IMG/VR virus record: IMGVR_UViG_3300035686_000003 | Span: 64,001-128,000 of that record | Strand: one strand, 5' to 3' | DNA length: 64,000 nucleotides | Source: a virus | Lineage: Duplodnaviria; Caudoviricetes | In this document: in pieces, positions 23,959 through 40,195 of the stretch | Position numbering within the stretch: the stretch's first letter is position 1 | Layout of the letters: each line of letters opens with the position of its first letter | Made by a program: the position numbers and the translations under genes | The notes under the pieces: model-generated | Told to the model about the DNA's origin: nothing | Database searches by the model: none | Seen by the model: the letters and a program-made list of their open reading frames with translations, nothing else

Positions 23959-24909
23959 TCAACCGAGGTCGATTCTTTCGCCTAGGACTCCTGCATGATA
24001 GGCTCTTTTGCACAGACTTCCCCAAGAATACTCTTCGTTGTAATAGTAGGCATGGAGGATCTTTTTGAACTCCTTCCAGAACCAACAAATTGACCTTTGA
24101 TCGAAGTAGTACAAATCCAGCTTGTAAACCATTGGCTCGCCATCTTCAGAAATATTGTAGGCGCAAGCTAGCATTCCTTGGTTGAGAGTATATTTTTCTT
24201 TTGTCAATTTGTTGAATGGTGCTACATACGCACTGAGCTGCAAAGCATACTTAATCAAAGGGAAGTATAGTTCTCCATTCTTTTTTTTGCTTATGGGAGC
24301 TTTTCTTTTGTTAAAATTCTTCCAGTCAAGAACAGTCATGCTGTAGCCACGCCCTTCATCTAGAATGTATGGTTTCACTTCAGTCGGCAATAGCGAGCAG
24401 TCGATATACTTGTAAGCATCAACTGTACCACCGTAACCTAACCGTGGATCTTCTTCGTCATGCCAGAAGATGCGCTTCTCCAAAGATATAGGGTGAATAT
24501 AGGGAAAGAGTGGTTGGAATGGTTCAATGAGGTTTAGTTGTGCGTCATCTAACCTCAACGATTCCTTAATGCTGGTGATCGCTAACTCTTGTTCTTCAAG
24601 GGGGAGCAACTGCAACTCAGGTCTTTCTGCGAGGATTAACTCAGGATAATGATATCTAAAGTGATTCTCTAATGCAGCATGGGCATTGGTTCCGTGGTTG
24701 CCTGCTTTAACTTTTATAGCTTCTGCCTTAGCCTTTCCTACTCGTTTCTGCCAACCAGAGAGAAAAGCTTTATCCTCGAACTTGCCGATGATTGTTGTAA
24801 CTGAAGAATATTCTTTATCTTTATGGCGGTAAACTCTGCCCTTGCCTTCAACTCTTGAGTTGTCTTGGATAATGTCTGTGTCGTTCCAAAGTTCTATTTG
24901 TGGTATCAT
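23959..24909 (-). CDS. PD-(D/E)XK exonuclease (phage Cas4-like)
   Basis: YSSVTTI, GT..H..LE, GGTVD, LDWK, LQLSAY. Confidence 0.8.
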   Translation of the reverse strand: MIPQIELWNDTDIIQDNSRVEGKGRVYRHKDKEYSSVTTIIGKFEDKAFLSGWQKRVGKAKAEAIKVKAGNHGTNAHAALENHFRYHYPELILAERPELQLLPLEEQELAITSIKESLRLDDAQLNLIEPFQPLFPYIHPISLEKRIFWHDEEDPRLGYGGTVDAYKYIDCSLLPTEVKPYILDEGRGYSMTVLDWKNFNKRKAPISKKKNGELYFPLIKYALQLSAYVAPFNKLTKEKYTLNQGMLACAYNISEDGEPMVYKLDLYYFDQRSICWFWKEFKKILHAYYYNEEYSWGSLCKRAYHAGVLGERIDLG

Positions 24910-24951
24910 TGTTTGTCATTTTAGCTGTGCTTATAATATTTTCGCACATTG

Positions 24952-24980
24952 TTGACAAATAATTATAGATTAGGTATATT
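24952..24980 (+). promoter_or_regulatory. Sigma70-type promoter
   Basis: TTGACA-17 bp-TATATT, pointing into an ORF-free gap. Confidence 0.65.
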
Positions 24981-24986
24981 TAAGAA

Positions 24987-25078
24987 GCCTGGTTGAATAA
25001 TACACTTTGACTTGGTAAAACCTTAACCCTCTCTTATTCAAAGCCGCTGTAACTCAAGTAAGTCTACAGCGGCTTTTG
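24987..25078 (+). ncRNA. Candidate ~90-nt sRNA
   Basis: Consensus promoter upstream, TTGAATAA/TTATTCAA stem, terminator AAAGCCGCTGTA..TACAGCGGCTTTT at 25040-25077; 25024-25035 is complementary to the helicase RBS. Confidence 0.45.
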
Positions 25079-25092
25079 CTTTGCGTAAGCTA

Positions 25093-25806
25093 CTATCGAA
25101 GCTTCCTATTGATCCGTTCGATGAGAGAGAGAAGGAGGGATTCTTCTTCGGCTTGGAGGTCAGCTATCTTCTCGTATTCTTTTTTTGCTGTAGTTTTTCT
25201 TTCTTTTAGAATCTGGTTGAGTGCTTCAGCATTTTGATTTACCCAGTCAAACTCTTCTTGACTTAGATCATATCGGCTCTGGGGAGTGACCCGCTGGTTG
25301 TTGCAATCGTAGATGTTACAGAAGCAAGTTGCCTTTTTTAAATCCGATGGCACCGAAATTTCAATCGTAATTATGTCATTGACTTGTGTTCCTAATCGCG
25401 CTAGAGAAAACAAAAGTCCTCTAGTAAAATTTGTAGCTATACCCTTCTCAAGCATCAATGGCACATCAGTCATCAAATCTAAACGTAGCTTAAGATTTTC
25501 TTCTCCTTCAAAATCCCTGACCCCAGTTTTCAGTAGCTTCACTTTTCCCTTAACTGCTCGTTGTTTGATGAACTCTTTCTGGTCGTCTACAGGGCGATCA
25601 CCATGATGCTTGTAAAACGATCCTGTTTTGTCATCAACATAGATTGCTGTACCACCCGAAGGAGGATCGCAGAAGCCAAGCACTTGCTCGCTATTATTAC
25701 TTTGGCTTTGCTGTTGTGCTAAGGACGCCAACACTTTGATTGCTGCCAAGATTTCTTCGTTTATACTTGTCATTGTTCTATCGCCTCTGTGGTCTACTAC
25801 TCTCAT
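25093..25806 (-). CDS. Hypothetical protein (cyanobacterial plasmid/phage type)
   Basis: Long ORF co-oriented with the operon; LGF..PP motif; function unknown. Confidence 0.55.
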   Translation of the reverse strand: MRVVDHRGDRTMTSINEEILAAIKVLASLAQQQSQSNNSEQVLGFCDPPSGGTAIYVDDKTGSFYKHHGDRPVDDQKEFIKQRAVKGKVKLLKTGVRDFEGEENLKLRLDLMTDVPLMLEKGIATNFTRGLLFSLARLGTQVNDIITIEISVPSDLKKATCFCNIYDCNNQRVTPQSRYDLSQEEFDWVNQNAEALNQILKERKTTAKKEYEKIADLQAEEESLLLSLIERINRKLR

Positions 25807-25810
25807 TGTA

Positions 25811-27646
25811 TCACGAGATGAGTTTGAATTTTTTCATCAAATCATTGCGTTGAGTCTTGATTAGAAGGCTTAATATTTGTGCCTTTACTTCAGCTACTCT
25901 TCTAGTTTCCCCTAGTTCTTGCTCAATGAAATCATCAAGATCGATGTGGGAGGTCGTGTTTAGCTTACCAAGAACGATGTCGCTTTGTGACTTGACAGTT
26001 GCCACAGCAAGGTTCAACCCCTGACGTTCAGTGGGCGTTAGAGCGTCTTTAGCTGCTATTGCAGTTCTAGTTTTACTTTGGTCTTGCGGAAGTTCAACAC
26101 TGTCAAGTGTAAACTGAGTTTTCGGATGCCACTTCCCATTAAATTCAACAATTCTGTCAGAAAGATCTCGTTTTGCGTTGCGAGGTGGTTCGTTATTTTT
26201 CAGTTCGCCCCAGTTACGTGCAGTCGCATCGAAGAGGTTTACGTTCCAAGTAACAGAACTGCCTGTAATGGTTGGAATTTCAACTCCAGGAGCGATCGCC
26301 GCAAAGCAAACCCTGAGTTTAGTTAGGTTACTCATCAAAGCAAGCTTGTTGATGTTTCCTTGAGGAGAACCAAACCAAACATACTTTCCACGCTTGTCTC
26401 CACCAGAAACCAATGAAGCACAAAGGTTCATCAATAGTTCCATTAGCTCTTTAGCAGCAGAAGCCAGATCCTCGCTTTCTTTTTTCTTTACGTCTCTCTC
26501 TAGTGACTGAGCCAAGAAATAAAACTCGTCAACAATCAAGAGACAAGGGTTGTCGTCTCTGGCATTCTTGAGGTAGTCCCTGATAACCACAATAAAAGAT
26601 TCGTAGGCATCAGTCTTATCAACGACATCTCCCAGATCAAAGAATTGCGTTTTAGTGCAATGTGCCCAATACTCAGGATCTTCGCCCTGTTTGGCTAGTG
26701 AGCTAATCGAATAAACTTTGTTGAATCTCCCCCTTTGCAATCCAATTTTGCTGGAGATTGCCATGAGCAATGATTTGCCGCATCTTTGTCCACCAATAAA
26801 GACAATTGAGTCAACGCACTCCAAGATGAAATCTACGATGTCTTTAGTTTTTTCGGATCGTTTAGCCATTTCGATTACACTTGGTTGTGAGATTTGTTCC
26901 TGCAAACGGGTGAAGGGTTCTTGAAGCTGAGTCGGGATAGACTCTACATCTGTTTCAACGAATACGGGAGCAGGCTTTGGAATAACAGTTTGCTTTGGTA
27001 GTTGAGGACGCTTTGAACTAGGAAGGGCAATGCTAGCCGTATATTCGTTTGCAAGATCTTCGCAAGCATCAAGAACTTCCTCATATCTCCAGCCTTTGCA
27101 ACGAGCTACGTGGTCAATCGCTTTGGTTAAGGGGTTGTCGCCTTTGTAACTAATCTCTCCATCGACAACTGTTACATCAACTGCCTCCTCAACAGCTTCC
27201 AAGAACAAGTCCGTGCCTGCAATTTTCCAAAGGCTAGCCCAATAGACTGTTGGTGACGAAGAAATAGCTAACCTCACTTGCTCAGAGGTTTTCTCTAGCT
27301 TCATTATTTTTGCCTGTTGAGTTCCCGCTGACCCAAGAAGCCCTATCATTCCGGCTCCAGCAAGCACAGGTATAACAGCTGCTCCAATAACACCTAATGT
27401 GGCACAAGAGCTAATTGCAAGTCCTCCAAGTAGCATTCCGCTTAAGCTCAAGGTAGCATTGGTTCTTTCAACGGCATGGCACTCTTTTTCAAGCTTTTTT
27501 AGTCCATTCAGCAATCTACCCAGAACATCAATGCGGTCTGCAACCGGGGTATCAGGAGTTACATTTGCAACTTGGATTAAGTCGTCAAATGGAGAGTTGA
27601 CTAAGCTTCGAGTTAATGCCAGTTCACCTTTGGATAATCTGTTCAT
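25811..27646 (-). CDS. Membrane-anchored P-loop ATPase (FtsK/HerA/VirD4-like architecture)
   Basis: Two N-terminal hydrophobic helices, Pro-rich linker, Walker A GGQRCGKS, Walker B LLIVDE. Confidence 0.65.
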   Translation of the reverse strand: MNRLSKGELALTRSLVNSPFDDLIQVANVTPDTPVADRIDVLGRLLNGLKKLEKECHAVERTNATLSLSGMLLGGLAISSCATLGVIGAAVIPVLAGAGMIGLLGSAGTQQAKIMKLEKTSEQVRLAISSSPTVYWASLWKIAGTDLFLEAVEEAVDVTVVDGEISYKGDNPLTKAIDHVARCKGWRYEEVLDACEDLANEYTASIALPSSKRPQLPKQTVIPKPAPVFVETDVESIPTQLQEPFTRLQEQISQPSVIEMAKRSEKTKDIVDFILECVDSIVFIGGQRCGKSLLMAISSKIGLQRGRFNKVYSISSLAKQGEDPEYWAHCTKTQFFDLGDVVDKTDAYESFIVVIRDYLKNARDDNPCLLIVDEFYFLAQSLERDVKKKESEDLASAAKELMELLMNLCASLVSGGDKRGKYVWFGSPQGNINKLALMSNLTKLRVCFAAIAPGVEIPTITGSSVTWNVNLFDATARNWGELKNNEPPRNAKRDLSDRIVEFNGKWHPKTQFTLDSVELPQDQSKTRTAIAAKDALTPTERQGLNLAVATVKSQSDIVLGKLNTTSHIDLDDFIEQELGETRRVAEVKAQILSLLIKTQRNDLMKKFKLIS

Positions 27647-27681
27647 GATCTTAAGCGGAACGCCTCGTGTAGATTCATTGA

Positions 27682-28440
27682 TTACATTTTGCGAGCAGAG
27701 ATATCGACCGTTGGTGCTTCACGTCTTGGTTCGCCACCACCTCTCGAAGATTGTCCTCCCTTGGCTTGCTGGTGCCCCTCATGGATAGCTTCTGCAATAT
27801 CGCAAGCAGCACTGAGCAAAGAGATCGTAACTTCGGGTAACACTAGTGTCACAATGAGCATCAGCATTCCTTGAAAGCTGAGAGACAGAACAGTTGCCCA
27901 AAACACTAGCTGAATAGCAGTCTCAACCAGGTAGGAAAGATACCTGCCTCTCTCTAACGTTCGATGAGAGAAAGTATGCCAGTTCATCAGACGCTCTGAG
28001 ACTCCTTCTGGCAAATCTTTAGCTTTGGGGTCAATGTTTTTGTTAACGTAAGCTTTGGCAATTTTCTTTTTTACTCTCCAAAGACTAGGGAATAATTGAT
28101 ACACGTTGAAACCAATGCCAGCTAATATTCCTAGTGTTCCAGCACCAATCCCAACAAGGACACCCCCAAGACCCAGAGCTTTTGCAGCCCAAACTCCAAT
28201 CGCACTCCACTGGTAACCAGCAGCAATCATCACTCCCGCAAAAATAGCAGCTGCAACAAACACAACAGCATCAGCAGTTGCAAGTACCTCAAGTAAAGTC
28301 TTAATTGCAAAAGTTGTCAGATTAAAGGTGTTATGGATGAACTCGCTAATCAGGTGGACTATCGATTTGCCAAAACTGAAGATCTTCTGCATGATTGCAG
28401 TAATTTTTTCATTCAGAGACTTGTCGTTTCCTTTGGACAT
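27682..28440 (-). CDS. Multi-pass membrane protein
   Basis: About four hydrophobic segments. Confidence 0.65.
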   Translation of the reverse strand: MSKGNDKSLNEKITAIMQKIFSFGKSIVHLISEFIHNTFNLTTFAIKTLLEVLATADAVVFVAAAIFAGVMIAAGYQWSAIGVWAAKALGLGGVLVGIGAGTLGILAGIGFNVYQLFPSLWRVKKKIAKAYVNKNIDPKAKDLPEGVSERLMNWHTFSHRTLERGRYLSYLVETAIQLVFWATVLSLSFQGMLMLIVTLVLPEVTISLLSAACDIAEAIHEGHQQAKGGQSSRGGGEPRREAPTVDISARKM

Positions 28441-28444
28441 GGCT

Positions 28445-28822
28445 TTACTTTCCTGCTTTGATTAAAGAGATTTGAGCATCAAGTTCTTTTTGGGTAAAAA
28501 GGTGTTGCACTTGTAACTGACTGTTATGATATGCAGCGTGACCAATTTTCCCGCTGGGATCTTTGAAACAAGAAGTTGGACTTCTGCCATCAGCGTGCAG
28601 TTGTATAACGTCACCAATTAACATCGGTCTAACAACTTTTTGACAGTTATTGACGAGCGAATGTCTAGCCACAGTATCTAAAGCTTTACTTCTGGAAACT
28701 TGCGCTCTACTAGATGTAAGGTTTTGTGCGAGCTGTGCCGACATTGATAGAACAGCACAGCCTGCGAGAATGGCAAAACTAATATGTTTGGCGTACAGAG
28801 GAGCAATCTTCATCAGCCCCAC
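28445..28822 (-). CDS. Exported/membrane-anchored protein
   Basis: N-terminal hydrophobic helix followed by a small soluble domain with two Cys. Confidence 0.55.
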   Translation of the reverse strand: MGLMKIAPLYAKHISFAILAGCAVLSMSAQLAQNLTSSRAQVSRSKALDTVARHSLVNNCQKVVRPMLIGDVIQLHADGRSPTSCFKDPSGKIGHAAYHNSQLQVQHLFTQKELDAQISLIKAGK

Positions 28823-29511
28823 ACCTCGTCTAAAAAAGAGTCAGTATCAAACTCAACCTTTGAATCCACCGAAGCCTGTCGCTCAACAGTTACTTGCTGT
28901 CTTCTTGTAGTCCGTTGATTCTCCCGTTCCTTCATCTCCTCAAGGAACTCGTCAACATTGACCTCTTCAACCTTGGTCACCTTCTTGTCAACGATCTTCT
29001 GGATATTAGTCGATGACAGTAAGTTGTCCAACACTTCTTCTTGCTCAGCCATTGCGTCAAGGATTCTGTTTGAGTAATCCTTTTGCCGCTGTTGCCAAGC
29101 AGCAACGAAAGTTTTCTCTTGTACTTCCGCTAGCAAATTTGCCCGTTGTTGTTCCCGGTTTGCAATGCTTGTTGCGATCGCGAATAACACTCTGTCAGAG
29201 AATCCAATGTTCTGAGCGGTCAACACCGACTTGGCACTTTTTACTAGCTCAGTTGTGTCTTGCAAGACTAATGCTTCCGTTTGTTCACTACAGTCGCTAG
29301 GGGTCTGTGTTGGTGTAACTGGTGCGGTGCCAGCAAGTTCCTTAGTTTGCTTGACTGCGAATCCCAATGCTTCAAGGGATTCAAATGCTGAAACAACGTC
29401 TTCTTCAGATATGTTATCGCTGTTTTCTGTGTACCCCATAGCTTTTAGAGCAGCTGTCGCATTTTCTTGGGGGTAGCAATCTAAATCTTTTAATGCTTCT
29501 GTAAAGTTCAT
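28813..29511 (-). CDS. Acidic coiled-coil hypothetical protein
   Basis: Helical E/Q-rich ORF overlapping the next gene. Confidence 0.6.
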   Translation of the reverse strand: MNFTEALKDLDCYPQENATAALKAMGYTENSDNISEEDVVSAFESLEALGFAVKQTKELAGTAPVTPTQTPSDCSEQTEALVLQDTTELVKSAKSVLTAQNIGFSDRVLFAIATSIANREQQRANLLAEVQEKTFVAAWQQRQKDYSNRILDAMAEQEEVLDNLLSSTNIQKIVDKKVTKVEEVNVDEFLEEMKERENQRTTRRQQVTVERQASVDSKVEFDTDSFLDEVWG

Positions 29512-29682
29512 GGTCTTCGTTACTTGCGCTTAGTTTTCTGTGTCTTACAACACTATAACACGACGATTAGCAATTGTCGGCTTTTCGACAACAAATATTC
29601 ATTACTATTGCGCTATGAAACGAAGAATATGGATTAGAAATTTTGATGGTAGAAAATACTTAGAGCCAGAGCTACTCCAAGC

Positions 29683-30066
29683 CTATGAGAATAGCCATGA
29701 CTCTACTACTTCTCTTTTCAATGCGAGAATCTTCTTTTTCCCTGACTCATCGGTTCCTCCAATCCAATCGCGAATATCTGCGTACTCACAAATGCTATGT
29801 ACTTCTTGGCACCAGGCAATCATCATAAGGAAAAATTTCTGGTAGAAGTCCAGCTTCTTCCGATTCTTCCTGTTTCCCCAATAAAGGATACGCACCAAAG
29901 AAATCGAACTATCAACAATCTCTCGTTCCCAGTTGTAGATCGTCCGTTCGGTGACGGACAGAACTTTAGCCCATTCTTCACGAGAGGAAAGGGTTTTTAG
30001 ATCGTCCTTGCTTGCCCCAAACATATTCAGCAAGGTACTTAGGTAATATGCCTCTTGAGTCTCCAT
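29683..30066 (-). CDS. HTH DNA-binding protein
   Basis: REEWAKVLSVTERTIYNWE; ATG at 30066 preferred over the longer track start. Confidence 0.65.
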   Translation of the reverse strand: METQEAYYLSTLLNMFGASKDDLKTLSSREEWAKVLSVTERTIYNWEREIVDSSISLVRILYWGNRKNRKKLDFYQKFFLMMIAWCQEVHSICEYADIRDWIGGTDESGKKKILALKREVVESWLFS

Positions 30067-30155
30067 GTTTTCTACTAATATTAATTCCTTGTAAAGTTTA
30101 ACACTAATTTGTATTTTCAGCCAATTGTTATCACAAAGGTTTGTAGATTTGTTTG

Positions 30156-30465
30156 TCCGAATCCGGAAACGACCCAGAAACGAGTCAGAACCCACCCAGA
30201 AAGGACTCGGAAAGTGCCTAATGATAGTGGTTCGCAATAGTGGACTAAAATTTTGCGAATGAAACTATAGAAAACGAGTGATTTACTTGAGCTGCATCTG
30301 TGAAACCCTTATGGCAGTAAGGTGTTTTATTTGAGGGGTATGTGAATCCCAGATTCTTTGTCGCAATAGTAAATCCAGAAAGGACTCGGAAAATCGGTCT
30401 TATATTGACGTATTGTGGGTCAGAAATCGGAACTTCCGGATTTGCTCACACCGTTTCCGGATTTT
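30156..30465. promoter_or_regulatory. Divergent control region with repeated sites
   Basis: CCAGAAAGGACTCGGAAA at 30196 and 30375; TCGCAATAGT twice; TCCGGA four times. Confidence 0.5.
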
Positions 30466-30636
30466 GCTGGTAGTATTTATTCCTATGAGTTTGAAAGTTG
30501 GAAGCAGTTCCTTACTTCTTCATTGTTCTTGACTCTGTTATCACAGAAGATGTTCCCGACAATGAGGTAAGCTCGACAACTTGACAACTCGACCGTCCAT
30601 CTACTAAGCTGGTGAAATAAACCGTTTCTGGACAAA

Positions 30637-30807
30637 ATGAACACTAAAAGACCGAAATTGACTTGCTTCACAACCCATGAACTTAGAACGTGCCTGAAGA
30701 AACACGTTATAGATGAAGGAACAACCTTGGACAAATTCATCCACGGTTTATTGGAGAATTACTTAAAGGAAAGAGGTCTACTTACAGAGAAAGAGGAGGC
30801 AGCTTAA
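30637..30807 (+). CDS. RHH-type DNA-binding protein (56 aa, not in the ORF track)
   Basis: MNTKRPKLTCFTTHELRTCLKKHVIDEGTTLDKFIHGLLENYLKERG. Confidence 0.65.
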   Translation: MNTKRPKLTCFTTHELRTCLKKHVIDEGTTLDKFIHGLLENYLKERGLLTEKEEAA

Positions 30808-30808
30808 T

Positions 30809-31018
30809 ATGTTCTGGAATCCCAACGGATGCAACAATCGCACATCACATAACAATGGTGAGCCAGTGTGGAACGAACCGACACTACGAAGATTTTGGCG
30901 ATACTGCGAGATTAAAGGCTTAGACTCAAAGGATGCTAGGTCGGTACAGAAGTTTGTTGAAGAAGAACTGTATCCTCCTATAGGCACGATTAACTCTCAG
31001 GGGGTGCCAAACTTCTGA
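30809..31018 (+). CDS. Hypothetical protein
   Basis: GAGGAGG RBS; tightly packed in a small operon. Confidence 0.5.
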   Translation: MFWNPNGCNNRTSHNNGEPVWNEPTLRRFWRYCEIKGLDSKDARSVQKFVEEELYPPIGTINSQGVPNF

Positions 31019-31290
31019 TGGCTACAGAAGAATTAACCATTGAACACGTAAGGCGATTTGCGCCATACCAATTGTTCCAGTGTGTATCTCCCGATGGGAG
31101 TGAGTATCTGTTGGAGTTGCAGGAGATGGACGTTGATGCTGCCATTGAAGCAGATGTGTTTCATATCAAAAACCTTAACAGCTCTGATCCTGTTGCAGTA
31201 ATGGACTTTGCTAACCTAAAGCTGACATTGCAGACCATCAAAACTTATGTACCCTGTTGGACAAACACCTGGGATAGATTAGTGCATTAA
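31018..31290 (+). CDS. Hypothetical protein
   Basis: TGATG overlap with the previous ORF. Confidence 0.55.
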   Translation: MATEELTIEHVRRFAPYQLFQCVSPDGSEYLLELQEMDVDAAIEADVFHIKNLNSSDPVAVMDFANLKLTLQTIKTYVPCWTNTWDRLVH

Positions 31291-31298
31291 AGGAAACC

Positions 31299-31445
31299 AT
31301 GAAGATAATCACTGCTGGGCTTTTCATCGTTACGATTCTTGCTACAGCTCAGTTGCTCACTGACTTCACGCCTATTTATGCAGACGCCCAACCGGAACCC
31401 ACAGAATCTTCGCCCCCACGAGGAGGTGGACGAAGAGATATTTAA
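31299..31445 (+). CDS. PatX/PatS-like secreted peptide (48 aa, not in the ORF track)
   Basis: MKIITAGLFIVTILATAQLLTDFTPIYADAQPEPTESSPPRGGGRRDI; AGGA RBS; signal-peptide-like N-terminus, Pro-rich linker, RGxGRR C-terminus. Confidence 0.65.
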   Translation: MKIITAGLFIVTILATAQLLTDFTPIYADAQPEPTESSPPRGGGRRDI

Positions 31446-31471
31446 CTTCAAAGGTTAGCGAACCTACCTTC

Positions 31472-31499
31472 AGCCCTGTGGGAAACTACGGGGCTTTTT
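31472..31499 (+). terminator. Intrinsic terminator
   Basis: AGCCCTGTGG-GAAA-CTACGGGGCT followed by TTTT. Confidence 0.75.
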
Positions 31500-31550
31500 G
31501 CTGTGTAAACGCCCACAATAGTAGCAGTAGATACAGAGGAGATTACTGTT

Positions 31551-32483
31551 GTGGCTTTTGGGAAACAAGAGTTTGAGCTAAAAGATTTTGTACAAGAGCA
31601 AACTCAGCGGCTAGCAGAAGAGACACCCAATGAAGAGAGTTGTGGATTTATTCTTCGGGATGACAATGTTATTCGGTGCAAGAATGTATTCTACAATCCA
31701 ATGCTCGATGATAAGGACGAGCAGGCACTTGCCGAACTCATGGATGAGTTAATTATTCGTGACGTGTCGCTCGAACAACCTTTGGACAAGGTTCGTGAGG
31801 CAATCTCGGTTAGGACAGGTATCGCAATATCAGCTCGCGATCGCTTAGCAGCAGATAGCAAAGGTATTGCTGCTGTGTGGCATTCCCACTGTCTCGATTC
31901 CTCACCAGGGATGCTGACCTACGAGGATAATCCAGCGCTAGGGATTCATTCGGACATCACACAATCGAAGCTGCAACGGTTACCTTATGTGATGTACCAT
32001 ACCCGTTTCAAAGAGTGGGATATGTATGACCCCTACAATCTCAGTCCATATCCACTGAAGAAGCAAATCGCCCACCCGGAAAATCCTGATGATTACGCTA
32101 ACCTTCCTTACTGTTGGAACCGTGCCGATTGCCTAGAAATTCCCAGATCAGCACTATGGGGAATGTTTGGTATTGACTTAGGTATTCATTTGCGATCTCA
32201 CCCTTCCGAGTACATGACTGAAGGATGGCAACGGTATGTCGATGACTTGCCAAAGCTAGGCTTTGAGGAAGTACCGATGTTTGACGCTATGAAGTTCAAA
32301 GCTGGCGATTGTCTGCTAGCGCAACTTCCGCGACACAAGACGCTACATCACTTATTCTTGCTTGTGGATGAGCCGAAGCAACTGGTGCTACACGTCATGG
32401 ATGGCGGCTTGAGTGTTATCGAACCTGTAGCGAAGTGGCGACGATTTGTGAGGGTGTTATTCCGTCACCAAAAATTTATCTAG
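31551..32483 (+). CDS. Tail assembly protein K-like (JAB/MPN + NlpC/P60)
   Basis: EESCG, WHSH and SD (JAB); ADCLE and HH (NlpC/P60). Confidence 0.8.
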   Translation: MAFGKQEFELKDFVQEQTQRLAEETPNEESCGFILRDDNVIRCKNVFYNPMLDDKDEQALAELMDELIIRDVSLEQPLDKVREAISVRTGIAISARDRLAADSKGIAAVWHSHCLDSSPGMLTYEDNPALGIHSDITQSKLQRLPYVMYHTRFKEWDMYDPYNLSPYPLKKQIAHPENPDDYANLPYCWNRADCLEIPRSALWGMFGIDLGIHLRSHPSEYMTEGWQRYVDDLPKLGFEEVPMFDAMKFKAGDCLLAQLPRHKTLHHLFLLVDEPKQLVLHVMDGGLSVIEPVAKWRRFVRVLFRHQKFI

Positions 32484-32746
32484 TTCTACAGAGGTTTTGG
32501 CTTTACAAAGGCTTTATAATTACCTCTGTCGATATAGAAGAACAGTGAAGATACTCCTGATCGCTTGTAGTCCTAAGCAGCTCAATGACTCCTCTTGGAA
32601 GATACCGAAGGGAGCTGAGCTTTTCATTGTCTGGAATCAACGAGAAGCTGAAGCCATCCAAAAGCTTCGGACTTTCGATGAAGTAATAAGGTTTTGTTAA
32701 TATAGTTATAGGCATAGCCTGGGGGTAGTCGTATGACTGCCGCAAC

Positions 32747-32769
32747 AGCCGTTCGCAAGGGCGGCTTTT
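32747..32769 (+). terminator. Intrinsic terminator
   Basis: AGCCGTTC-GCAA-GGGCGGCT followed by TTT. Confidence 0.65.
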
Positions 32770-32839
32770 GTTGTGTCTGTGGGAGCTTACGCAAACTTGA
32801 ATTTGCTATTGCGGCGATGATTAAAATAAATTTGAAATT

Positions 32840-33136
32840 ATGAATGATATAAAAGTTGCAATTAAGCCAGGTGGCATTGGTACAGAAATATTTTTAAATG
32901 GGAAAAAGATCGATGCTGCAACTAGAAAAATTATTGTCGAGATCAATCCTTCTTCAGCTTCTATGACTGTGGAAGGACTGCTTATAGGAGAGGATGGACT
33001 ACCATTAATTGCTGGCGAAGAACTTCAGACTTACTCCTGTAATGCGTCAATAGAAGAACCCGGAGAGATAAACTTATCGTCACCCATGCTCGCACGTTTG
33101 TTGCAGTCGATTGACAGGAGTGCCGATGCTAACTAA
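32840..33136 (+). CDS. Hypothetical protein
   Basis: Clean ORF overlapping the start of tail I. Confidence 0.5.
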   Translation: MNDIKVAIKPGGIGTEIFLNGKKIDAATRKIIVEINPSSASMTVEGLLIGEDGLPLIAGEELQTYSCNASIEEPGEINLSSPMLARLLQSIDRSADAN

Positions 33137-33689
33137 AGTCCGGCTACTCGGGGTCTTGGGAGAGGAGTTTATCCCTGAGATTAACCTAGATATTAATTCT
33201 GTGCAAGAGGCTTCATGGGCACTCCAAAATATCTTTCCCCGCTTCAAGTCTTGGGTATTGGAGCAGGCGCAACATGGGCTAGCTTATGAAGTTTTCGTGG
33301 GCGATTGGCAAATTGGAGAACAGCATTTGCTGGCGGCTACTGGAGGGCAGGAGATATCAATTATTCCTTTAATAGGCGGAAGTGGTCGAGGCATTATTTC
33401 CATCATTGGAGGTCTTGCCCTGATCGGACTCGGATTAGCCACAGGAGGTGCGGGTTTCTTGGGATTTTCCTCTACCAGCTTATTATTGGCAGGCGGGGCG
33501 CTTTTACTCCAGGGCATCATTGGCTCAAAAAGTCCCAAAGCAGAAGAGAATGGACAAAAAAATAGTTTGATCTTTTCCGGTCAGCCCAATGTTACTGCTG
33601 TGGGAGCAGCTAAGCCGTTATGTTTCGGAGTCTTCCTAGTATCTGGCACCGTAGTGAGCGCCAGAATACGTACATTTGAATTATCGTGA
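33126..33689 (+). CDS. Tail assembly protein I-like (ubiquitin-like fold)
   Basis: VRLLG.LG..F, IIPLIGGSG, Gly-rich hydrophobic segment, FSGQPN...G..P..FG...V.G.VVSA. Confidence 0.85.
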   Translation: MLTKVRLLGVLGEEFIPEINLDINSVQEASWALQNIFPRFKSWVLEQAQHGLAYEVFVGDWQIGEQHLLAATGGQEISIIPLIGGSGRGIISIIGGLALIGLGLATGGAGFLGFSSTSLLLAGGALLLQGIIGSKSPKAEENGQKNSLIFSGQPNVTAVGAAKPLCFGVFLVSGTVVSARIRTFELS

Positions 33690-34029
33690 CGTACTCTAAC
33701 GCAGTAATTCAGGTCATTCTTTTCGCTTTCTCGTTGGGCTGTCTAAAGATTTTTCTATATCCCAGCCTCTTTTTAATCGATGGTACAATGGTACTCTCGA
33801 ATTACTCGAACGTCAAGGGTGGGTTACAATCGTAGCAATACATTAACCTATTGCTGCTCATGTCTAAGGCTGAAGTCTGCAACCACATCGAACGTATCGC
33901 AAAGCTGTTGCGACGAAGGTTTTATGTTTGGTACGACTGTCGCCTTGGCTACTACTGTGCGACTCCTTGGCGTCCTACGGGTAAACCATCAGATCTCATT
34001 GAACCGTGAATGTTAAGCTTCAGTAGTGA

Positions 34030-34302
34030 ATGAGTCTCATCCCTCTTGCCATGATCGATATCGAGTTGGAAGCTGGACTACCTTGGGGAGCAATTGCACA
34101 CCGTTGCTACCAGTCGTTCTATAGTGCCCTAGAGGGTGCAGGAGAGGCAAATGAGTACGCAACTTGGGATGAGTTGTCAGTTGGCGAGAAGCTGGCATTT
34201 GAGGTTGCACTACGGGAACTAGAAGAATGCATCTGTGACCGAAAGCAAGAATTGAACCGTTGGAATAATTTTGTTCAGCGAAGACTAAAGAAAGAACTAT
34301 GA
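34030..34302 (+). CDS. Hypothetical protein
   Basis: ORF coupled to the downstream gene. Confidence 0.45.
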   Translation: MSLIPLAMIDIELEAGLPWGAIAHRCYQSFYSALEGAGEANEYATWDELSVGEKLAFEVALRELEECICDRKQELNRWNNFVQRRLKKEL

Positions 34303-34643
34303 AAAACACAGTAACTCAAGCCGAAATCGACTTCCTACTCGACAATGCAGAAACTCAGGAGCATATCTTCTGGGACAAGGAGCTAGTCATAAGCTACAAG
34401 CTACCATCAAGCTTCACAATCAGTGGTAGAGCAGCAGTAATTGATGTCAGCAACTTTGATATAAACATCGGTCGTAAGATTTGTCGTGAGAATGCCGCCC
34501 ATCAGCTATGGCAGCTCGAAGGTTATCGGAAGCAACTGGAGTTACAAAAGTTAGCGAAAGAGCCTGAAAAGGTTTGCCAGTTCAAAGTCATGGGTTTTGA
34601 GGTAACAATTGTCAACCATGAATTGCAACCAGGCTGGAATTGA
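34299..34643 (+). CDS. Phage Gp49/66-like protein
   Basis: F...G.AA.ID..NFD..IG..IC.ENA...LW.LEGY. Confidence 0.75.
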   Translation: MKNTVTQAEIDFLLDNAETQEHIFWDKELVISYKLPSSFTISGRAAVIDVSNFDINIGRKICRENAAHQLWQLEGYRKQLELQKLAKEPEKVCQFKVMGFEVTIVNHELQPGWN

Positions 34644-35934
34644 TTTAATTAAGTTTTACGAAGGACTTAGATTAGAGAGCTATAAACATACAGGGGATGT
34701 CTGGACTGTCGGCTATGGTCACACTAAAGGTGTCAAGCCGAATATGCAGATAACCAAAGATGAGGCAGAGGAGTTGCTACGGAAGGACTTGGAACACTTT
34801 GAGGATGCAGTGACTCGCTTAGTCAAAGTTCCCCTCAATGAAAATCAATTCTCTGCTTTAGTATCCTTTGCATACAATTGCGGCGAAGGTGCATTGGCAA
34901 CTTCTACTGCACTTCGGAGGCTCAACTCTGGTGATTACAAAGGTTGTACGGAAGCGTTACAATGGTATAACAAAGGTTCTAGCGGCAATGTGCTACCTGG
35001 TTTAACCAAACGCAGAAAAGCAGAAGCGGAGTTATTCAGCCTAGAACCCACGCAGGTCGTAGTGCCAACTTACACGCAGACCCTGGAAAGAACTCCGCTC
35101 ACCATTCAAGCCCCTATGAATAATAGTAGTAGTTTCCTCTTCAACACATATCGCTACTTCAAAGATTTGCCACATCAGCGTAGCGCGATCGCTTACCTTG
35201 AGCAACATACATCACCAGAAGTACTGCAAGAGATGCAGGAGCTTTGGAGAGCTGGGAACGTCATCGCTCAAGTGCAGAAGATGCAAGTCCGTGAAGATAA
35301 GCCCATTCGACTTGTCGATAAAATTGTGGCTTACATGAAGGACAAGGGTTATGTCGTATTCAATGAGTCGGGAAAGCGAAATATCGTTTATGTTGAGGGG
35401 ATGAATCCTGACGGGCGATTGAACGATGATCGTCCTAATTGGTTCAATGATATCCGTTGTGTGTTCGAGTATCGTGATGGCAAGCCGGAGATGCTGGGTA
35501 TTTGGCAGGGGTCAACCGAACCGGGAAGCCACTACACTCATCGTCCAATGAATCCCAAGGGATGTGCCAGAATCGCCTTCGGACAATATCAGAGTGCTTG
35601 GGCTGTGGGATTACATGGAACCCGTCACAGGTATGAAGCCTTGGTGCAAGTGGGTAACGTCACAGTTCATCGTGATCTCAACAAAGACTTCAAGAGAACT
35701 GGGGATAAGCTATATACAGGTAACGACTATTACATTAATCAGCACCACGGAGGCAATGCTGCGGAGAATAGTTTAGGGATGCACAGTGCGGGATGTCTCA
35801 TTGGTCGCACTGTTGAGGGTCACCAGCAGTTTATGAAGATTGTTAAAGGTGATCCCGATTACCAGCAAAACAAGCACTATCGCTTCACCACTACAGTAAT
35901 TCCGGGCGATGAACTGGTAAAGCTGTACCCCTAA
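34618..35934 (+). CDS. Endolysin: GH24 lysozyme plus a C-terminal putative second catalytic domain
   Basis: LIKFYEG.RL..Y...G.VWTVGYGHT, NQFSALVSFAYN.G, GL..RR.AE; C-terminal INQHHG...HSAGC. Confidence 0.9.
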   Translation: MNCNQAGIDLIKFYEGLRLESYKHTGDVWTVGYGHTKGVKPNMQITKDEAEELLRKDLEHFEDAVTRLVKVPLNENQFSALVSFAYNCGEGALATSTALRRLNSGDYKGCTEALQWYNKGSSGNVLPGLTKRRKAEAELFSLEPTQVVVPTYTQTLERTPLTIQAPMNNSSSFLFNTYRYFKDLPHQRSAIAYLEQHTSPEVLQEMQELWRAGNVIAQVQKMQVREDKPIRLVDKIVAYMKDKGYVVFNESGKRNIVYVEGMNPDGRLNDDRPNWFNDIRCVFEYRDGKPEMLGIWQGSTEPGSHYTHRPMNPKGCARIAFGQYQSAWAVGLHGTRHRYEALVQVGNVTVHRDLNKDFKRTGDKLYTGNDYYINQHHGGNAAENSLGMHSAGCLIGRTVEGHQQFMKIVKGDPDYQQNKHYRFTTTVIPGDELVKLYP

Positions 35935-36287
35935 TCTCTGTAGGACTCATCAACCCAATCTTCCTCGATATGCACGTCAGGCTCCAGATATGGCAACACA
36001 CGTTGCGATTGTTCTCTACTGTCAGGCGTTAGTCTACCTTGGCTCAACGTGTAACTGTCGGACTCAACTACGGTAGTGGAATTGTCTTCTCGTTGACTTC
36101 CTCCACTCTGGAATGCACCCGCTGCTGCCGATATCCCTGCTGGCAATGCTGTAGCTAGGAGAGTGTCGATAGCTTCTTTATTGTCTCCAGGAGCAAACGA
36201 TAACGCGATCGCTCCTAGAATGCACAAAGTTGTTACTCCTCCACCAAACATCAAAACATACTTTGCGATACTGTTAGGCTGACTCAT
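35931..36287 (-). CDS. Two-TM membrane protein (holin candidate)
   Basis: Two hydrophobic helices and a charged tail; convergent with the endolysin. Confidence 0.4.
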   Translation of the reverse strand: MSQPNSIAKYVLMFGGGVTTLCILGAIALSFAPGDNKEAIDTLLATALPAGISAAAGAFQSGGSQREDNSTTVVESDSYTLSQGRLTPDSREQSQRVLPYLEPDVHIEEDWVDESYRD

Positions 36288-36364
36288 ACAGATAAATTAT
36301 ATTTTGTCTACTATTGTAACCCATAGGCTACCATAGTCTAAAATGTGTTATCTACTGCTAACTT

Positions 36365-36670
36365 ATGGATACCTTTCGTCACTTCCACAGGACACTCACT
36401 TATGCCTTCAAGGCAACCCAGAGTGTTACCCATGCAAACCTTGATAACGTTGGCGTCTACACACGAATGTTTATTGGTTGGTGGACAGCGTGTGGGCATA
36501 AGTTTGCTGAACATTACTATGAAAGTCAAAACTTCCAGCAGCTCAACAATAGGATGCTGACGCTCCTAGATGGTAGCAACCTCATCACTTTTGCAGCGAG
36601 TATCCAAGAAGTCAAGAAATATGCAGACCTGTTGGCTGAGGAATTTGGTATTATGGTTGACCCCGACTAA
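36365..36670 (+). CDS. Hypothetical protein
   Basis: ORF only. Confidence 0.45.
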   Translation: MDTFRHFHRTLTYAFKATQSVTHANLDNVGVYTRMFIGWWTACGHKFAEHYYESQNFQQLNNRMLTLLDGSNLITFAASIQEVKKYADLLAEEFGIMVDPD

Positions 36671-36776
36671 TCTTCGAGGAACAGGAAGTAGTCGAACAAG
36701 CAGGTTGATGCCGCAAATAGTAGTAGGAAGAAAATAATATCCATCGAAGATACCAATAATTTCTACGATATTAATT

Positions 36777-37475
36777 CTAGCCTATTCGCGTCAACGCTGG
36801 GAACGCTAGCATCGGTAGCACAGCATTAGCGCCAAAGCGTAACTCACAGGCACCTATAGTCTTCGCACAAGCAGCTTGAGGATCGCCAAAGGGTACTGGA
36901 GTGTTATTCATGTTCCACTCACTTGTGCCGCTATAGCCGCACTCCAGAGGGTGACGGTAACGAGCTTGGCAACGATTGAGGCAAAGTTGAGTAGGGAGCT
37001 TGGTCTCCAGTAGCTCCAATGGTGTCGTTAATTCAAAGACCACTCCAATTCCAGCAACTAATTCTTTGGGGTGGGATATCTGGAATTTCTGGATAGGTTT
37101 TGTCGCAGCAGGATTTGGTTCGGTGCCATCATCGAGATGCTTCCGAAGTATTTGAATAATCTTAATATTTGCACCCACCAATCCATCACCGTAGTAATCG
37201 ATAAGTCCTGTGATAATCTGGGAGTCCTCCGTTGTTGCATCAGACACAGCTAATGTTGGCGTAGGTAGCTGACCCTCTGAAGTAACCTCTAAACCTTCAA
37301 TGCTACAAGCTAAAGGTAAGTAGGAGATCCCGTTATGCACAACTCCATCATGTGCTGTAAAGTGGAACGACTCAAAAGGGGAGCTTTTGTTAAAATTGCT
37401 AAGCTCGAAAAGCAACAGTTCTGAATCATGATCTAGTGATTGCAAAGATTGTATAGTCACAATCCCACCCTCCAC
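36777..37475 (-). CDS. Minor tail protein L-like
   Basis: LFEL, G..Y.P.......G.E....G.LPTPTL.VS, LP...C...C..RY...ECGY.G, CAK...AC..RFG, FP. Confidence 0.9.
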   Translation of the reverse strand: MEGGIVTIQSLQSLDHDSELLLFELSNFNKSSPFESFHFTAHDGVVHNGISYLPLACSIEGLEVTSEGQLPTPTLAVSDATTEDSQIITGLIDYYGDGLVGANIKIIQILRKHLDDGTEPNPAATKPIQKFQISHPKELVAGIGVVFELTTPLELLETKLPTQLCLNRCQARYRHPLECGYSGTSEWNMNNTPVPFGDPQAACAKTIGACELRFGANAVLPMLAFPALTRIG

Positions 37476-37825
37476 ACTTGTTCAAAAGTTCCCTGAAATT
37501 GGTGATGCAAGATACCATTCTGCTGCCCCGCATAATTCACTTGATATTCTTTGCACTTAAAATTCAACCCCTGCAACTCTGGTGGTGCATCAGTGTCGAA
37601 TGCAAACGGACGTGTACCCCTGAGAGATACCAAGAATGCTTCCAGCTGGGTTCCGTTACTCACTAGTTGATTCACAGCAACACTCAGTTTCACAGAATTT
37701 AACCCTGGGACAACCCGACTCTGGATTAACCCGGATTCTTTCTGCTGCTCAAGCGATCGCACGTCACATTCGTATGACAACTGTGTGCCAAAGGCTAACT
37801 TTAGTGGGATGATGGGGATTGGCAA
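37457..37825 (-). CDS. Minor tail protein M-like
   Basis: Q.RVVPGLN, FL..LRG.RPF.F, FKCKEY, F.GTFEQV; directly upstream of L. Confidence 0.75.
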   Translation of the reverse strand: MPIPIIPLKLAFGTQLSYECDVRSLEQQKESGLIQSRVVPGLNSVKLSVAVNQLVSNGTQLEAFLVSLRGTRPFAFDTDAPPELQGLNFKCKEYQVNYAGQQNGILHHQFQGTFEQVWRVGL

Positions 37826-37897
37826 AATCAGTGAACAATGATTAGTGAACAGTTATCCTCTTAATTCTCGTTACATCAGGGGTTTCGGGTATGTGCG

Positions 37898-37926
37898 TTG
37901 ACACACAAGGTCGGAGGTGTTATTGT
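37898..37926 (+). promoter_or_regulatory. Sigma70 promoter with extended -10
   Basis: TTGACA-17 bp-TATTGT with TG upstream of the -10. Confidence 0.65.
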
Positions 37927-37952
37927 AAGAAAAAAGTTGAGGGTTAACTTAA

Positions 37953-38216
37953 ATGAAAAGAACATTGATAGCCGTCACACTCGTTGCAATATTATGTACA
38001 TCTTGTGCAAGTGATCAAGTTTTTGCAAAATCAGAAGCGACAATTGCTGACTTAGGTTACACCAACATCAAGTACGAAGGATATGCTTGGGTAAGTTGTG
38101 ACAAAAATGACTTTTATGCTTTGAAATATTCAACTACATCAGCTTCTGGTCGCAGAGTCACGTTAGCCGCTTGCTCTGGAGTCTTCAAAGGAGTCACAGT
38201 TCGGACAATAAACTAA
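37953..38216 (+). CDS. Lipoprotein
   Basis: Signal peptide with a lipobox-like LCTSC; own promoter and terminator (about 38235-38266). Confidence 0.7.
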   Translation: MKRTLIAVTLVAILCTSCASDQVFAKSEATIADLGYTNIKYEGYAWVSCDKNDFYALKYSTTSASGRRVTLAACSGVFKGVTVRTIN

Positions 38217-38328
38217 CGCACCACTCACACCTGTAGCCCGTTACTTCTTCTGGAGTAGCGGGTTTCACGTTTGTGTCAGGGTAACACTTGAGCTATGATG
38301 AACAATGATAAATATTAAAGAAATCTAA

Positions 38329-38640: not shown

Positions 38641-38714
38641 ATTAGGGATTGTAGTCACAATAAAGCCGCCTCTAGTAACTCTAGTTGGGCGGCTGTTGTT
38701 TTTATGGGCAGTAG

Positions 38715-40168: not shown

Positions 40169-40195
40169 CCTCCGAGAGATTTCTACTATTTTAGC

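What the first reader, a model, noticed from the sequence alone, without database searches (positions are those of the whole stretch)
31299..31445. Phage-encoded PatX/PatS-like morphogen mimic (hidden 48-aa ORF ending PPRGGGRR)
Seen: an ORF below the track cut-off with an AGGA RBS and its own terminator, encoding a hydrophobic signal-like N-terminus (possible AxA site at ADA), a Pro-rich linker and C-terminal PPRGGGRRDI. Known: PatX of filamentous cyanobacteria has this layout with an RG(S/T)GR core, and PatS/PatX/HetN pentapeptides inhibit HetR, the master regulator of heterocyst differentiation. Inference: the phage may export a HetR-binding peptide to keep filament cells vegetative and permissive, or use it as an arbitrium-like signal. 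The core is RGGGR rather than RGSGR, so activity is not assured. I do not know of a described phage patX.
Basis: partly seen in the sequence, partly recalled or inferred. Interest (0 to 1): 0.85.

Follow-up and report, generated by a model that had tools for sequence, protein, structure and literature searches.

The report
Phage exported peptide resembling PatX
A virus of (probably heterocyst-forming) soil-crust cyanobacteria carries a real small gene for an exported peptide whose last ~20 residues look like the active end of PatX, the host signal that switches off the developmental regulator HetR. Its closest viral relatives lack the motif, and no experiment shows it works that way.

Summary
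The 48-aa ORF (31299-31445, +) is there as described, with an AGGA ribosome-binding site and a terminator. It is a real gene: three related phage contigs have a small exported-peptide ORF in the same slot. It is not a PatX family member (13.7 bits against a 30-bit cutoff; true PatX scores at least 48 bits on my own model). The three closest homologs lack RGxGR, so the gene family's shared function is not HetR binding.

In this phage alone, the tail (AQPE...PPRGGGRRDI) matches the Nostocales PatX active end beyond the pentapeptide. It scores 16.5 bits, which none of 19,252 background ORFs, 50,000 tail shuffles or 60,000 family-conditional simulations reached. Three lines point to a Nostocales host: HIP1 enrichment, avoidance of Ava/Asu/Nsp restriction sites, and a shared sRNA-like gene.

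Counter-point: all 47 Nostocales-type PatX have Ser or Thr where the phage has Gly. Gly occurs only in a Microcoleaceae subtype and one low-scoring paralog.

My odds: active HetR antagonist 0.35; coincidence with another function 0.33; inactive PatX look-alike 0.15; not translated 0.12; communication peptide 0.05.

This scan has flagged exported RGxGR peptides in other, unrelated cyanophage genomes before. Those notes are unverified.

The parts
31291..31294 (+). Shine-Dalgarno-like AGGA, 4 nt upstream of the ATG
   Evidence: Read directly. The same AAGGAAA-N-ATG arrangement is seen in relative L008.
31299..31445 (+). 48-aa ORF including the stop codon: small exported-peptide gene, one of a 3-4-member phage-specific family
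   Evidence: Syntenic homologs: L008 911-1099, L009 3040-3210, L007 5775-5903. The profile search finds only these.
31299..31388 (+). Signal-peptide-like N-terminus (residues 1-30): MK, an 18-residue hydrophobic core, candidate cleavage sites ATA|Q (after residue 16) and ADA|Q (after residue 30). YAD(A/G) is invariant in the three clear homologs.
   Evidence: Sequence inspection plus alignments. No SignalP was available.
31383..31442 (+). PatX-like tail (residues 29-48): QPE...P-P-RGGGR-RDI
   Evidence: 16.5 bits on a model of 92 natural PatX. Nulls: 0/19,252 ORFs, 0/50,000 shuffles, 0-2/60,000 family-conditional simulations. Best natural match is L195.
31419..31433 (+). RGGGR pentapeptide (CGA GGA GGT GGA CGA)
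   Evidence: A single A/G difference separates its central Gly codon GGT from the Ser codon AGT of L195.
31472..31500 (+). Intrinsic terminator hairpin plus T run that closes the small operon
   Evidence: Conserved in window, L007, L008 and L009. No such hairpin was seen by eye in the short intergenic DNA of L010, the one peptide-less relative printed; the other peptide-less relatives were not checked for it.
31500..31511 (+). Conserved box CGCCCACAATAG between the terminator and the tail-tip gene
   Evidence: Invariant or near-invariant in four relatives. Function unknown.
30637..31290 (+). Upstream genes of the same rightward operon: 56-aa ORF that looks RHH-like by eye (30637-30807), 69-aa (30809-31018), 90-aa (31018-31290)
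   Evidence: No Pfam/PHROG family for any of them, so 'RHH-like' is my reading, not a tool result. The 90-aa gene is conserved in all relatives.
30434..30464 (.). Two TTCCGGATTT iterons in the divergent control region. They contain TCCGGA but are phage-specific operator words, not DIF1 promoters.
   Evidence: each relative has its own repeated word in the same region.

Best explanation
The ORF is a real accessory gene of a cyanophage that most likely infects a heterocyst-forming (Nostocales) cyanobacterium.

Its product is a small Sec-type exported pro-peptide. The single most likely specific mechanism, which I hold at about one in three, is that it acts as a PatX-type decoy. The pro-peptide is exported and trimmed in the periplasm by host peptidases, as PatX is by PatP. 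An RGGGR-containing fragment then re-enters infected and neighbouring cells and binds the HetR hood domain through main-chain pairing and its two arginines. This would dampen HetR-driven differentiation so that cells stay vegetative and permissive.

Shown: the gene is conserved in related phages; the exported-peptide layout; the tail's statistically unusual match to the Nostocales PatX active end; the cyanobacterial, probably Nostocales, host.

Inferred: export, processing, uptake, HetR binding, and any benefit to the phage.

The summed alternatives outweigh this reading, but no single alternative mechanism outranks it.
For: 1. Real gene: syntenic ORFs in L008, L009 and L007 were called independently, and the profile recovers them at E 1e-20 to 1e-26.

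2. Aligned with 15 natural PatX, the peptide reads as a shortened PatX: signal peptide, then QPE..P-x-RGxGRRDI. It scores 16.5 bits on a model of 92 PatX, against 7.0, 1.0 and -1.7 for its own homologs.

3. Nulls: 0 of 19,252 six-frame ORFs reach 16 bits (next best 12.6). 0 of 50,000 tail shuffles do. 0 of 60,000 simulations with the family backbone fixed do, or 2 of 60,000 with the shared Gly also fixed. The local alignment to L195 scores 55 against a null of 31.7 +/- 4.3.

4. DNA: 21 of 24 nt are identical to L195 patX over the RGxGRRDI codons (24 of 27 counting the following codon), including a 17-nt exact run. The Ser codon AGT stands against the Gly codon GGT.

5. In the solved HetR-PatS6 structure, binding rests on four main-chain H-bonds and eight H-bonds from the two arginines. 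The serine adds one (PMC4649674).

6. RGGGR occurs in two natural members of the NCBIfam PatX family (L198, L234).

7. Host: HIP1 occurs 65 times against 1.3 expected. AvaI/AvaII/AsuI/AsuII/NspI sites are absent or nearly so. An sRNA-like gene is 36/36 identical to Nostocaceae copies, and 8 of 10 phylum-sample hits lie in PatX-positive genomes. The source is a biocrust metagenome.

8. A protein-language-model search puts three PatX clusters on top at 0.80-0.82, which the tool rates as a lead only.

9. PatX must be exported to act, and HRGTGR binds HetR (PMC12756182).
Against: 1. Not a PatX member: 13.7 bits against the 30-bit cutoff. An equal score arises at a non-coding place in the same phage, and the model gives weak hits in 13 of 14 control genomes. 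True PatX scores 48-111 on my model. Only the last third of the model aligns, and a ~25-residue middle segment is missing.

2. The three syntenic homologs have VGTPR, GDQTR or SDDRR in place of RGxGR. Whatever the family does in common is therefore not HetR binding. hhalign of the family against PatX gives 17.7% probability. The Atlas control with the L008 peptide does not hit PatX.

3. All 47 Nostocales-type PatX have Ser (46) or Thr (1). Gly and other residues occur only in the Microcoleaceae M-type and in low-scoring paralogs, in genomes that also hold an RGSGR copy. This argues that Ser/Thr matters in the inferred host group.

4. The finding came from a motif hunt over very many windows, so chance cases are expected somewhere.

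5. There is no DIF1 promoter, no expression data, and no binding data.

6. The DNA identity is not significant once identical amino acids and the choice among 95 loci are allowed for (my estimate).
Confidence: 0.35

Rival explanations
1. Coincidence. The gene encodes a small exported or membrane-anchored Pro-rich peptide whose function lies in the part shared by the family (signal/anchor plus YAD(A/G) plus an acidic-then-basic tail). That function could be an envelope-acting role such as superinfection exclusion or modulation of a periplasmic host protein. The RGGGR tail is then one state of a fast-drifting C-terminus.
For: The homologs keep the ORF, the signal-like N-terminus and YAD(A/G) but not RGxGR. 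The cassette (ORF plus hairpin) is present only in a sub-clade and absent from L003, L006, L010, L011 and L013, as expected of a dispensable accessory gene. RGxGR is common in this genome (11 in six frames). There is no detectable homology to anything else. The finding was selected by motif from a very large scan.
Against: The match to PatX extends into the flanks and was never reached in 19,252 ORFs, 50,000 shuffles or 60,000 family-conditional simulations. The matching PatX subtype and the inferred host agree, both being Nostocales. No positive evidence exists for any particular envelope function.
Confidence: 0.33
2. A PatX-derived or PatX-convergent tail that is no longer, or not fully, active on HetR. 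The Ser-to-Gly change (one A-to-G transition) weakened or retargeted it, and the homologs show later stages of the same decay.
For: Nostocales PatX is strictly Ser/Thr (47/47). AGT against GGT is the only non-synonymous difference from L195 within RGxGRRDI. L008 still scores 7 bits on the PatX model over signal plus linker. The homologs keep PP-x4-R in register.
Against: The ORF, its start and its signal peptide are intact in all members, which suggests selection for some function. The M-type PatX tolerates many central residues, and the structure gives the serine only one H-bond.
Confidence: 0.15
3. The ORF is not translated, or not functional. It would be a chance open frame between the 90-aa gene and a conserved terminator.
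For: It is very short, has no Pfam/PHROG/NCBIfam family, only four examples are known, and there are no expression data.
Against: The same slot holds an ORF with the same start context, a signal-like N-terminus and an invariant YAD(A/G) in relatives whose flanking tail gene is only 59-65% identical. Independent gene callers called all of them.
Confidence: 0.12
4. An arbitrium-like phage communication pro-peptide. The conserved signal sequence exports it, and the variable C-terminus is a phage-specific code read by a phage receptor to set the lysis/lysogeny or timing decision.
For: It has a signal peptide plus a C-terminus that differs between related phages. It lies at the end of a small operon that starts at a divergent control region with phage-specific iterons, which looks like a genetic switch.
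Against: No AimR-like or other receptor candidate is nearby, since the neighbours have no family. The 90-aa neighbour is present in relatives that lack the peptide. There is no precedent in phages of Gram-negative-type hosts (my own knowledge).
Confidence: 0.05

Closest known systems
PatX (Asl2332 of Nostoc/Anabaena PCC 7120; NCBIfam NF047413, Pfam PF28278)
   Same: Small protein with an N-terminal Sec-type signal, a Pro-rich linker, and P-x-RGxGR-R-(D/E) near the C-terminus. The tail matches the Nostocales consensus QPE..P.RGSGRR(D/E).
   Different: It is 48 aa against 56-98 aa and lacks the middle ~25 residues. It scores 13.7 bits against a 30-bit cutoff. It has Gly where Nostocales PatX has Ser/Thr (47/47). 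It is phage-borne, not next to hetR, and has no DIF1 promoter. Its own homologs lack the motif.
PatS and HetN of heterocystous cyanobacteria
   Same: Both carry the RGSGR-type pentapeptide that binds the HetR hood domain (PMC4649674, PMC7761841).
   Different: PatS (13-17 aa) and HetN are made and processed in the cytoplasm and have no signal peptide. Both have Ser at the centre.
Microcoleaceae 'M-type' PatX-family peptides (e.g. L148, L198, L210)
   Same: Signal peptide, acidic linker, and PP-x-RGxGR with a variable central residue that includes Gly (L198).
   Different: They end exactly at the final Arg, are 67-71 aa, and score 46-63 bits on NF047413.
AimP (arbitrium) pro-peptides of Bacillus phages
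   Same: About 40-50 aa, with an N-terminal signal peptide and a short phage-specific C-terminal active peptide (my own knowledge).
   Different: There is no adjacent receptor gene, the host type differs, and there is no sequence similarity.
Cyanophage-encoded NblA (my own knowledge)
   Same: A precedent for cyanophages carrying a small (~60 aa) host-type regulatory protein that reprograms host physiology.
   Different: NblA phage copies are clear homologs of the host gene. Here, homology to the host gene is not demonstrable.

Membership tests
PatX (NF047413 / PF28278) | Score at or above the curated cutoff (30 bits) over the whole model | tested here: not met
   13.7 bits, covering model positions 50-68 only. 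Weak sub-cutoff hits also appear in 13/14 control genomes (scores not listed), and a 13.9-bit hit lies at a non-ORF site of the same phage. True PatX of Nostoc, Microcoleus and Scytonema score 57-85 bits.
PatX (NF047413 / PF28278) | N-terminal Sec-type signal peptide | tested here: inconclusive
   MK plus an 18-residue hydrophobic core and AxA-type sites (ATA|Q, ADA|Q), judged by inspection and by alignment to PatX signal peptides. No signal-peptide predictor was available.
PatX (NF047413 / PF28278) | RG(S/T)GR pentapeptide near the C-terminus | tested here: not met
   The phage has RGGGR. Of 95 natural family ORFs, 78 are RGSGR, 3 RGTGR and 2 RGGGR. All 47 Nostocales-type are S/T. RGxGR as such, and its P-x prefix and RR(D/E) suffix, are met.
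PatX (NF047413 / PF28278) | Motif conserved among orthologs | tested here: not met
   Syntenic homologs L008, L009 and L007 lack RGxGR, and none hits the PatX model.
PatX (NF047413 / PF28278) | DIF1 (TCCGGA) NtcA/HetR-dependent promoter | tested here: not met
   Two TCCGGA lie about 180-200 nt upstream of the operon's first start codon (30637), but they are part of a phage-specific iteron. Relatives carry different words at the same place. TCCGGA is not enriched in the genome (20 against 27 expected).
PatX (NF047413 / PF28278) | Derived peptide binds HetR and blocks differentiation | not testable with these tools
   The controlled complex prediction with HetR could not be run, because the server was unreachable. 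ITC/EMSA and in-vivo tests are needed.
Arbitrium AimP-type communication peptide | Cognate receptor (AimR-like) encoded next to the peptide gene | tested here: not met
   The neighbours are 56-, 69- and 90-aa proteins without any family, plus tail-tip genes.
Spanin (o-spanin/Rz1-like Pro-rich lipoprotein) | Lipobox with Cys after the signal sequence | tested here: not met
   The 48-aa product contains no cysteine.

The most novel reading that the evidence does not exclude
A cyanophage of heterocyst-forming cyanobacteria exports a miniature PatX look-alike. It would have evolved on the scaffold of a pre-existing phage secreted peptide, or been patched in from a host patX 3' end. Its RGGGR fragment would inhibit HetR along the filament, so the virus controls the multicellular development of its host. 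Together with the other, unrelated phage RGxGR peptides noted by this scan, this would mean that HetR antagonism has been invented repeatedly by cyanophages.
Probability: 0.3. Interest if true: 0.9.

Novelty: new variant of a known kind. Interest (0 to 1): 0.66.

Why it matters
HetR and its RGSGR-type inhibitors are the textbook bacterial example of a Turing-type activator-inhibitor patterning system.

A virus that makes its own inhibitor would be the first case of a phage manipulating the developmental patterning of a multicellular bacterium. It would also give a natural experiment on which residues of the morphogen matter (Gly against Ser/Thr). It would bear on nitrogen fixation in soil crusts, where Nostocales supply fixed nitrogen.

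The test is cheap: a synthetic hexa- to octapeptide, purified HetR, and an inducible construct in PCC 7120. Even a negative result would be useful, because it would calibrate how far RGxGR motif hits in phage genomes can be trusted.

Tried and rejected
- Complex prediction of a HetR dimer (HETR_NOSS1) with residues 19-48: submitted seven times and never answered because the server was unreachable. There is no result of any kind.
- Expression: no RNA holder was listed. The only run holding the DNA is the biocrust metagenome that may be its source.
- DIF1 promoter idea: rejected. TCCGGA is part of a phage-specific iteron.
- PatX model hit as evidence: rejected at face value, because it is at noise level in controls.
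- Word-based homolog search with the peptide: found only itself.
- Profile search of 1.84e9 proteins: found only the three family members.
- Pfam, PHROGs and NCBIfam: no family for the peptide or its three upstream neighbours.
- Host via prophage relatives of the tail-tip gene in 185,579 species genomes: none found.
- Spacer-grade DNA matches in 144 Microcoleaceae genomes for window 22001-42000: none, only endolysin-level similarity and the sRNA-like element.
- patX in phages: tblastn of a Nostoc PatX and of the peptide against 50,697 phage genomes gave noise only. The IMG/VR scan with a Nostocales PatX alignment found none, but it used N-terminal patterns only. The first, broader alignment was too diverse to scan with.
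- Recent capture from a host patX, judged from DNA: 21/24 nt identical over the shared RGxGRRDI codons (24/27 with the next codon) is suggestive but not significant once amino-acid identity is allowed for.
- Spanin reading: rejected, because there is no Cys.
- Literature: no paper mentions RGGGR together with HetR. Wu et al. 2004 (patS minigene substitutions) is not held.
- Identity of the sRNA-like element: no Rfam family and no sequence match in papers.

Full report
**What is there**

The window is bases 64001-128000 of a 147,706-bp IMG/VR virus record that CheckV rates as complete. At 31299-31445 (+) there is a 48-codon ORF. It has AGGA 4 nt upstream of the ATG and a 10-pair hairpin plus T run 26 nt after the stop.

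The product starts with MK and an 18-residue hydrophobic stretch. It has two AxA-type sites, a Pro/Glu-rich linker, and ends in PPRGGGRRDI.

The ORF is the last gene of a short rightward operon: a 56-aa ORF that looks RHH-like by eye (no family hit), then 69-aa and 90-aa genes, then the peptide. The operon begins at a divergent control region. Downstream lie lambda K-like and I-like tail-tip genes and an endolysin.

**Is it a gene?**

The K-like neighbour has homologs at 54-65% identity on metagenomic contigs. I fetched eleven such loci.

In the two closest (L008, L009), the slot between the 90-aa gene and the K-like gene holds a small ORF with the same start context, a signal-like N-terminus, an invariant YAD(A/G), and a Pro-rich acidic-then-basic tail. 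L007 has a more divergent one. All three were called by the sources' own gene callers.

The ORF and the hairpin behind it are missing together from L010. The ORF is also missing from the more distant relatives L003/4/5, L006, L011/12 and L013, where I did not check for the hairpin. It therefore behaves as a lineage-specific accessory cassette.

A profile of the three clear members, searched against 1.84 billion representative proteins, returns only those three. The family is tiny and has no detectable relatives, PatX included.

**Tests that go against a PatX reading**

- The curated NCBIfam PatX model gives 13.7 bits against a cutoff of 30, over its last 19 positions only. Run over the whole phage, the same model scores 13.9 bits at a non-coding place, and it gives weak hits in 13 of 14 unrelated control genomes.
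- None of the syntenic homologs hits the model. Their tails read VGTPR, GDQTR and SDDRR where the window has RGGGR.
- hhalign of the phage family against PatX gives 17.7% probability.
- The pair of TCCGGA hexamers upstream, which looked like DIF1 promoter elements, are iterons. Every relative has its own repeated word in that region.
- RGxGR occurs 11 times in the six-frame translation.

**Tests that go for it**

I obtained cyanobacterial genome handles through HIP1-rich contigs and ran the PatX model over 401 cyanobacterial genomes. 77 have a hit above the cutoff. From these I extracted 95 family ORFs.

A model built from 92 of them gives the window peptide 16.5 bits, aligned from the end of the signal peptide through QPE..P-P-RGGGRRD. 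Its homologs get 7.0, 1.0 and -1.7 bits, and true PatX get 48-111.

Three nulls were run:
- 19,252 six-frame ORFs from the phage, its relatives and unrelated loci: maximum 12.6.
- 50,000 composition-preserving shuffles of the tail: maximum 13.9.
- 60,000 simulations holding the residues shared with the homologs fixed: maximum 14.9. With the shared Gly also fixed, 2 of 60,000 reach 16.5.

The resemblance therefore goes beyond the pentapeptide and is not explained by composition or by the family backbone.

The best natural match is a Nostocales-type PatX (L195). Its tail NQPEDTAPNRGSGRRDI compares with the phage's AQPEPTESSPPRGGGRRDI, with a local score of 55 against a null of 31.7 +/- 4.3. Over the eight RGxGRRDI codons the DNA is identical at 21 of 24 nt (24 of 27 counting the following codon), with AGT (Ser) against GGT (Gly). 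I judge this suggestive but not significant once amino-acid identity is allowed for.

A language-model search independently ranks three PatX clusters first, but at 0.80-0.82, which the tool rates as a lead only. The same search with the L008 homolog does not find PatX. Both results agree that the PatX likeness belongs to this phage's tail and not to the gene family.

**The central residue**

The literature gives RGSGR, with RGTGR in a few alleles (PMC7761841). In my sample the family as NCBIfam defines it also holds RGEGR, RGDGR, RGQGR, RGKGR and RGAGR, and RGGGR twice (L198, L234).

Split by subtype, all 47 Nostocales-type sequences are Ser (46) or Thr (1). The variable centre is a property of the Microcoleaceae M-type, which ends exactly at RGxGR, and of a few low-scoring paralogs. 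Both RGGGR carriers sit in genomes that also have an RGSGR copy.

An earlier follow-up of this scan concluded that one such phage-borne RGEGR peptide copies a different host peptide, not PatX. I did not verify that, but it prompted this split.

In the HetR hood-PatS6 crystal structure the peptide is held by four main-chain H-bonds and eight from the two arginines, and the serine adds one to Glu253 (PMC4649674). Gly is therefore not excluded, but it is not what the inferred host group uses.

**Host**

Four lines of evidence bear on the host:
- HIP1 (GCGATCGC) occurs 65 times against 1.3 expected.
- The genome has no GGCC, GGWCC, GGNCC or TTCGAA, and almost no CYCGRG or RCATGY. From my own knowledge these are the classic AvaI/AvaII/AsuI/AsuII/NspI specificities of Anabaena and Nostoc.
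- A ~85-nt sRNA-like gene 230 nt downstream of the K-like gene is 36/36 identical to single-copy genes in Nostocaceae genomes and about 90% identical to those of Microcoleaceae. In the phylum-wide sample, 8 of its 10 genuine hits lie in PatX-positive genomes, although only 83 of 401 genomes are PatX-positive.
- The only run holding the DNA is a biocrust metagenome.

A filamentous, HetR/PatX-bearing and probably heterocystous host is well supported, but it is not proven.

**Weighing**

The gene is real (about 0.88). It is not a PatX family member.

Whether its tail acts on HetR cannot be settled in silico. For: an improbable, subtype-coherent match in the right host context. Against: motif-less homologs, the Gly, and the fact that the finding was picked by motif from a very large scan.

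I put an active HetR antagonist at 0.35, an inactive or retargeted PatX look-alike at 0.15, coincidence with another (envelope or periplasmic) function at 0.33, an untranslated frame at 0.12, and an arbitrium-like signal at 0.05.

No phage patX exists in 50,697 sequenced phages, in IMG/VR by the patterns tried, or in the searchable literature. This scan has noted exported RGxGR peptides in other, sequence-unrelated cyanophages. Those notes are unverified and I do not count them as support. If they hold, the theme would be recurrent.

Noticed in passing
window 32709-32795 (+): The phage carries a copy of a cyanobacterial sRNA-like gene: two short invariant hairpins plus its own terminator. Single-copy homologs, with a TTGACA-17-TAnnAT promoter and a terminator, occur in 9/201 Nostocaceae genomes (36/36 identical) and 19/144 Microcoleaceae genomes (~90%). 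There is no Rfam family and no literature match. A phage-encoded host sRNA mimic would merit its own follow-up.
   Followed up: partly
whole phage genome (G000), including the window: Complete or near-complete avoidance of many restriction sites: GGCC 0/341, GGWCC 0/191, GGNCC 0/341, TTCGAA 0/44, CYCGRG 2/85, RCATGY 3/140. Also GGATCC, CTGCAG, GAGCTC and CTCGAG at 0/27 each. GATC, TCGA and ATCGAT are normal. GGCC is also absent from seven related contigs but not from L007.
   Followed up: partly
whole phage genome (G000): The HIP1 palindrome GCGATCGC is 50-fold enriched (65 against 1.3 expected), and no tRNA genes are present.
   Followed up: yes
window 53976-54185 (+): A 69-aa ORF that looks like a ribbon-helix-helix protein by eye, directly after the 1012-aa gene, has an exact RGSGR at residues 9-13 in its basic N-terminal arm. 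It was the second-best PatX-model score in the phage (11.9 bits). It is probably a chance motif in a DNA-binding arm.
   Followed up: partly
window 30238-30636 and the matching regions of L003, L006, L008, L009, L011, L013: The divergent control region carries arrays of short repeats whose word differs from phage to phage: TTCCGGATTT here, CCGGACA, TCGGACA, TTGGACA, TTGCCCAAG and TTTCCCATTTT in relatives. This suggests operator specificity co-evolving with the adjacent regulator candidates (an upstream leftward ORF and the small rightward ORF, neither with a family hit).
   Followed up: partly
window 31472-31511; L007, L008, L009: The terminator hairpin and a CGCCCACAATAG box upstream of the K-like tail gene are more conserved than the flanking coding DNA in four phages. 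This may be a late-promoter or antitermination element.
   Followed up: no
L148, L197, L198, L201, L205, L207, L210, L213, L214, L217, L221 (cyanobacterial genomes): The Microcoleaceae 'M-type' PatX-family peptides end exactly at RGxGR, with a highly variable central residue (S, T, G, A, E, Q, K). A second paralog in the same genomes (Q-type) keeps RGSGR. The literature describes only S/T.
   Followed up: partly
L009 2924-3043 (+): In this relative, an extra 39-aa, extremely acidic ORF sits between the 90-aa gene and the peptide gene and overlaps the latter's start (ATGA).
   Followed up: no
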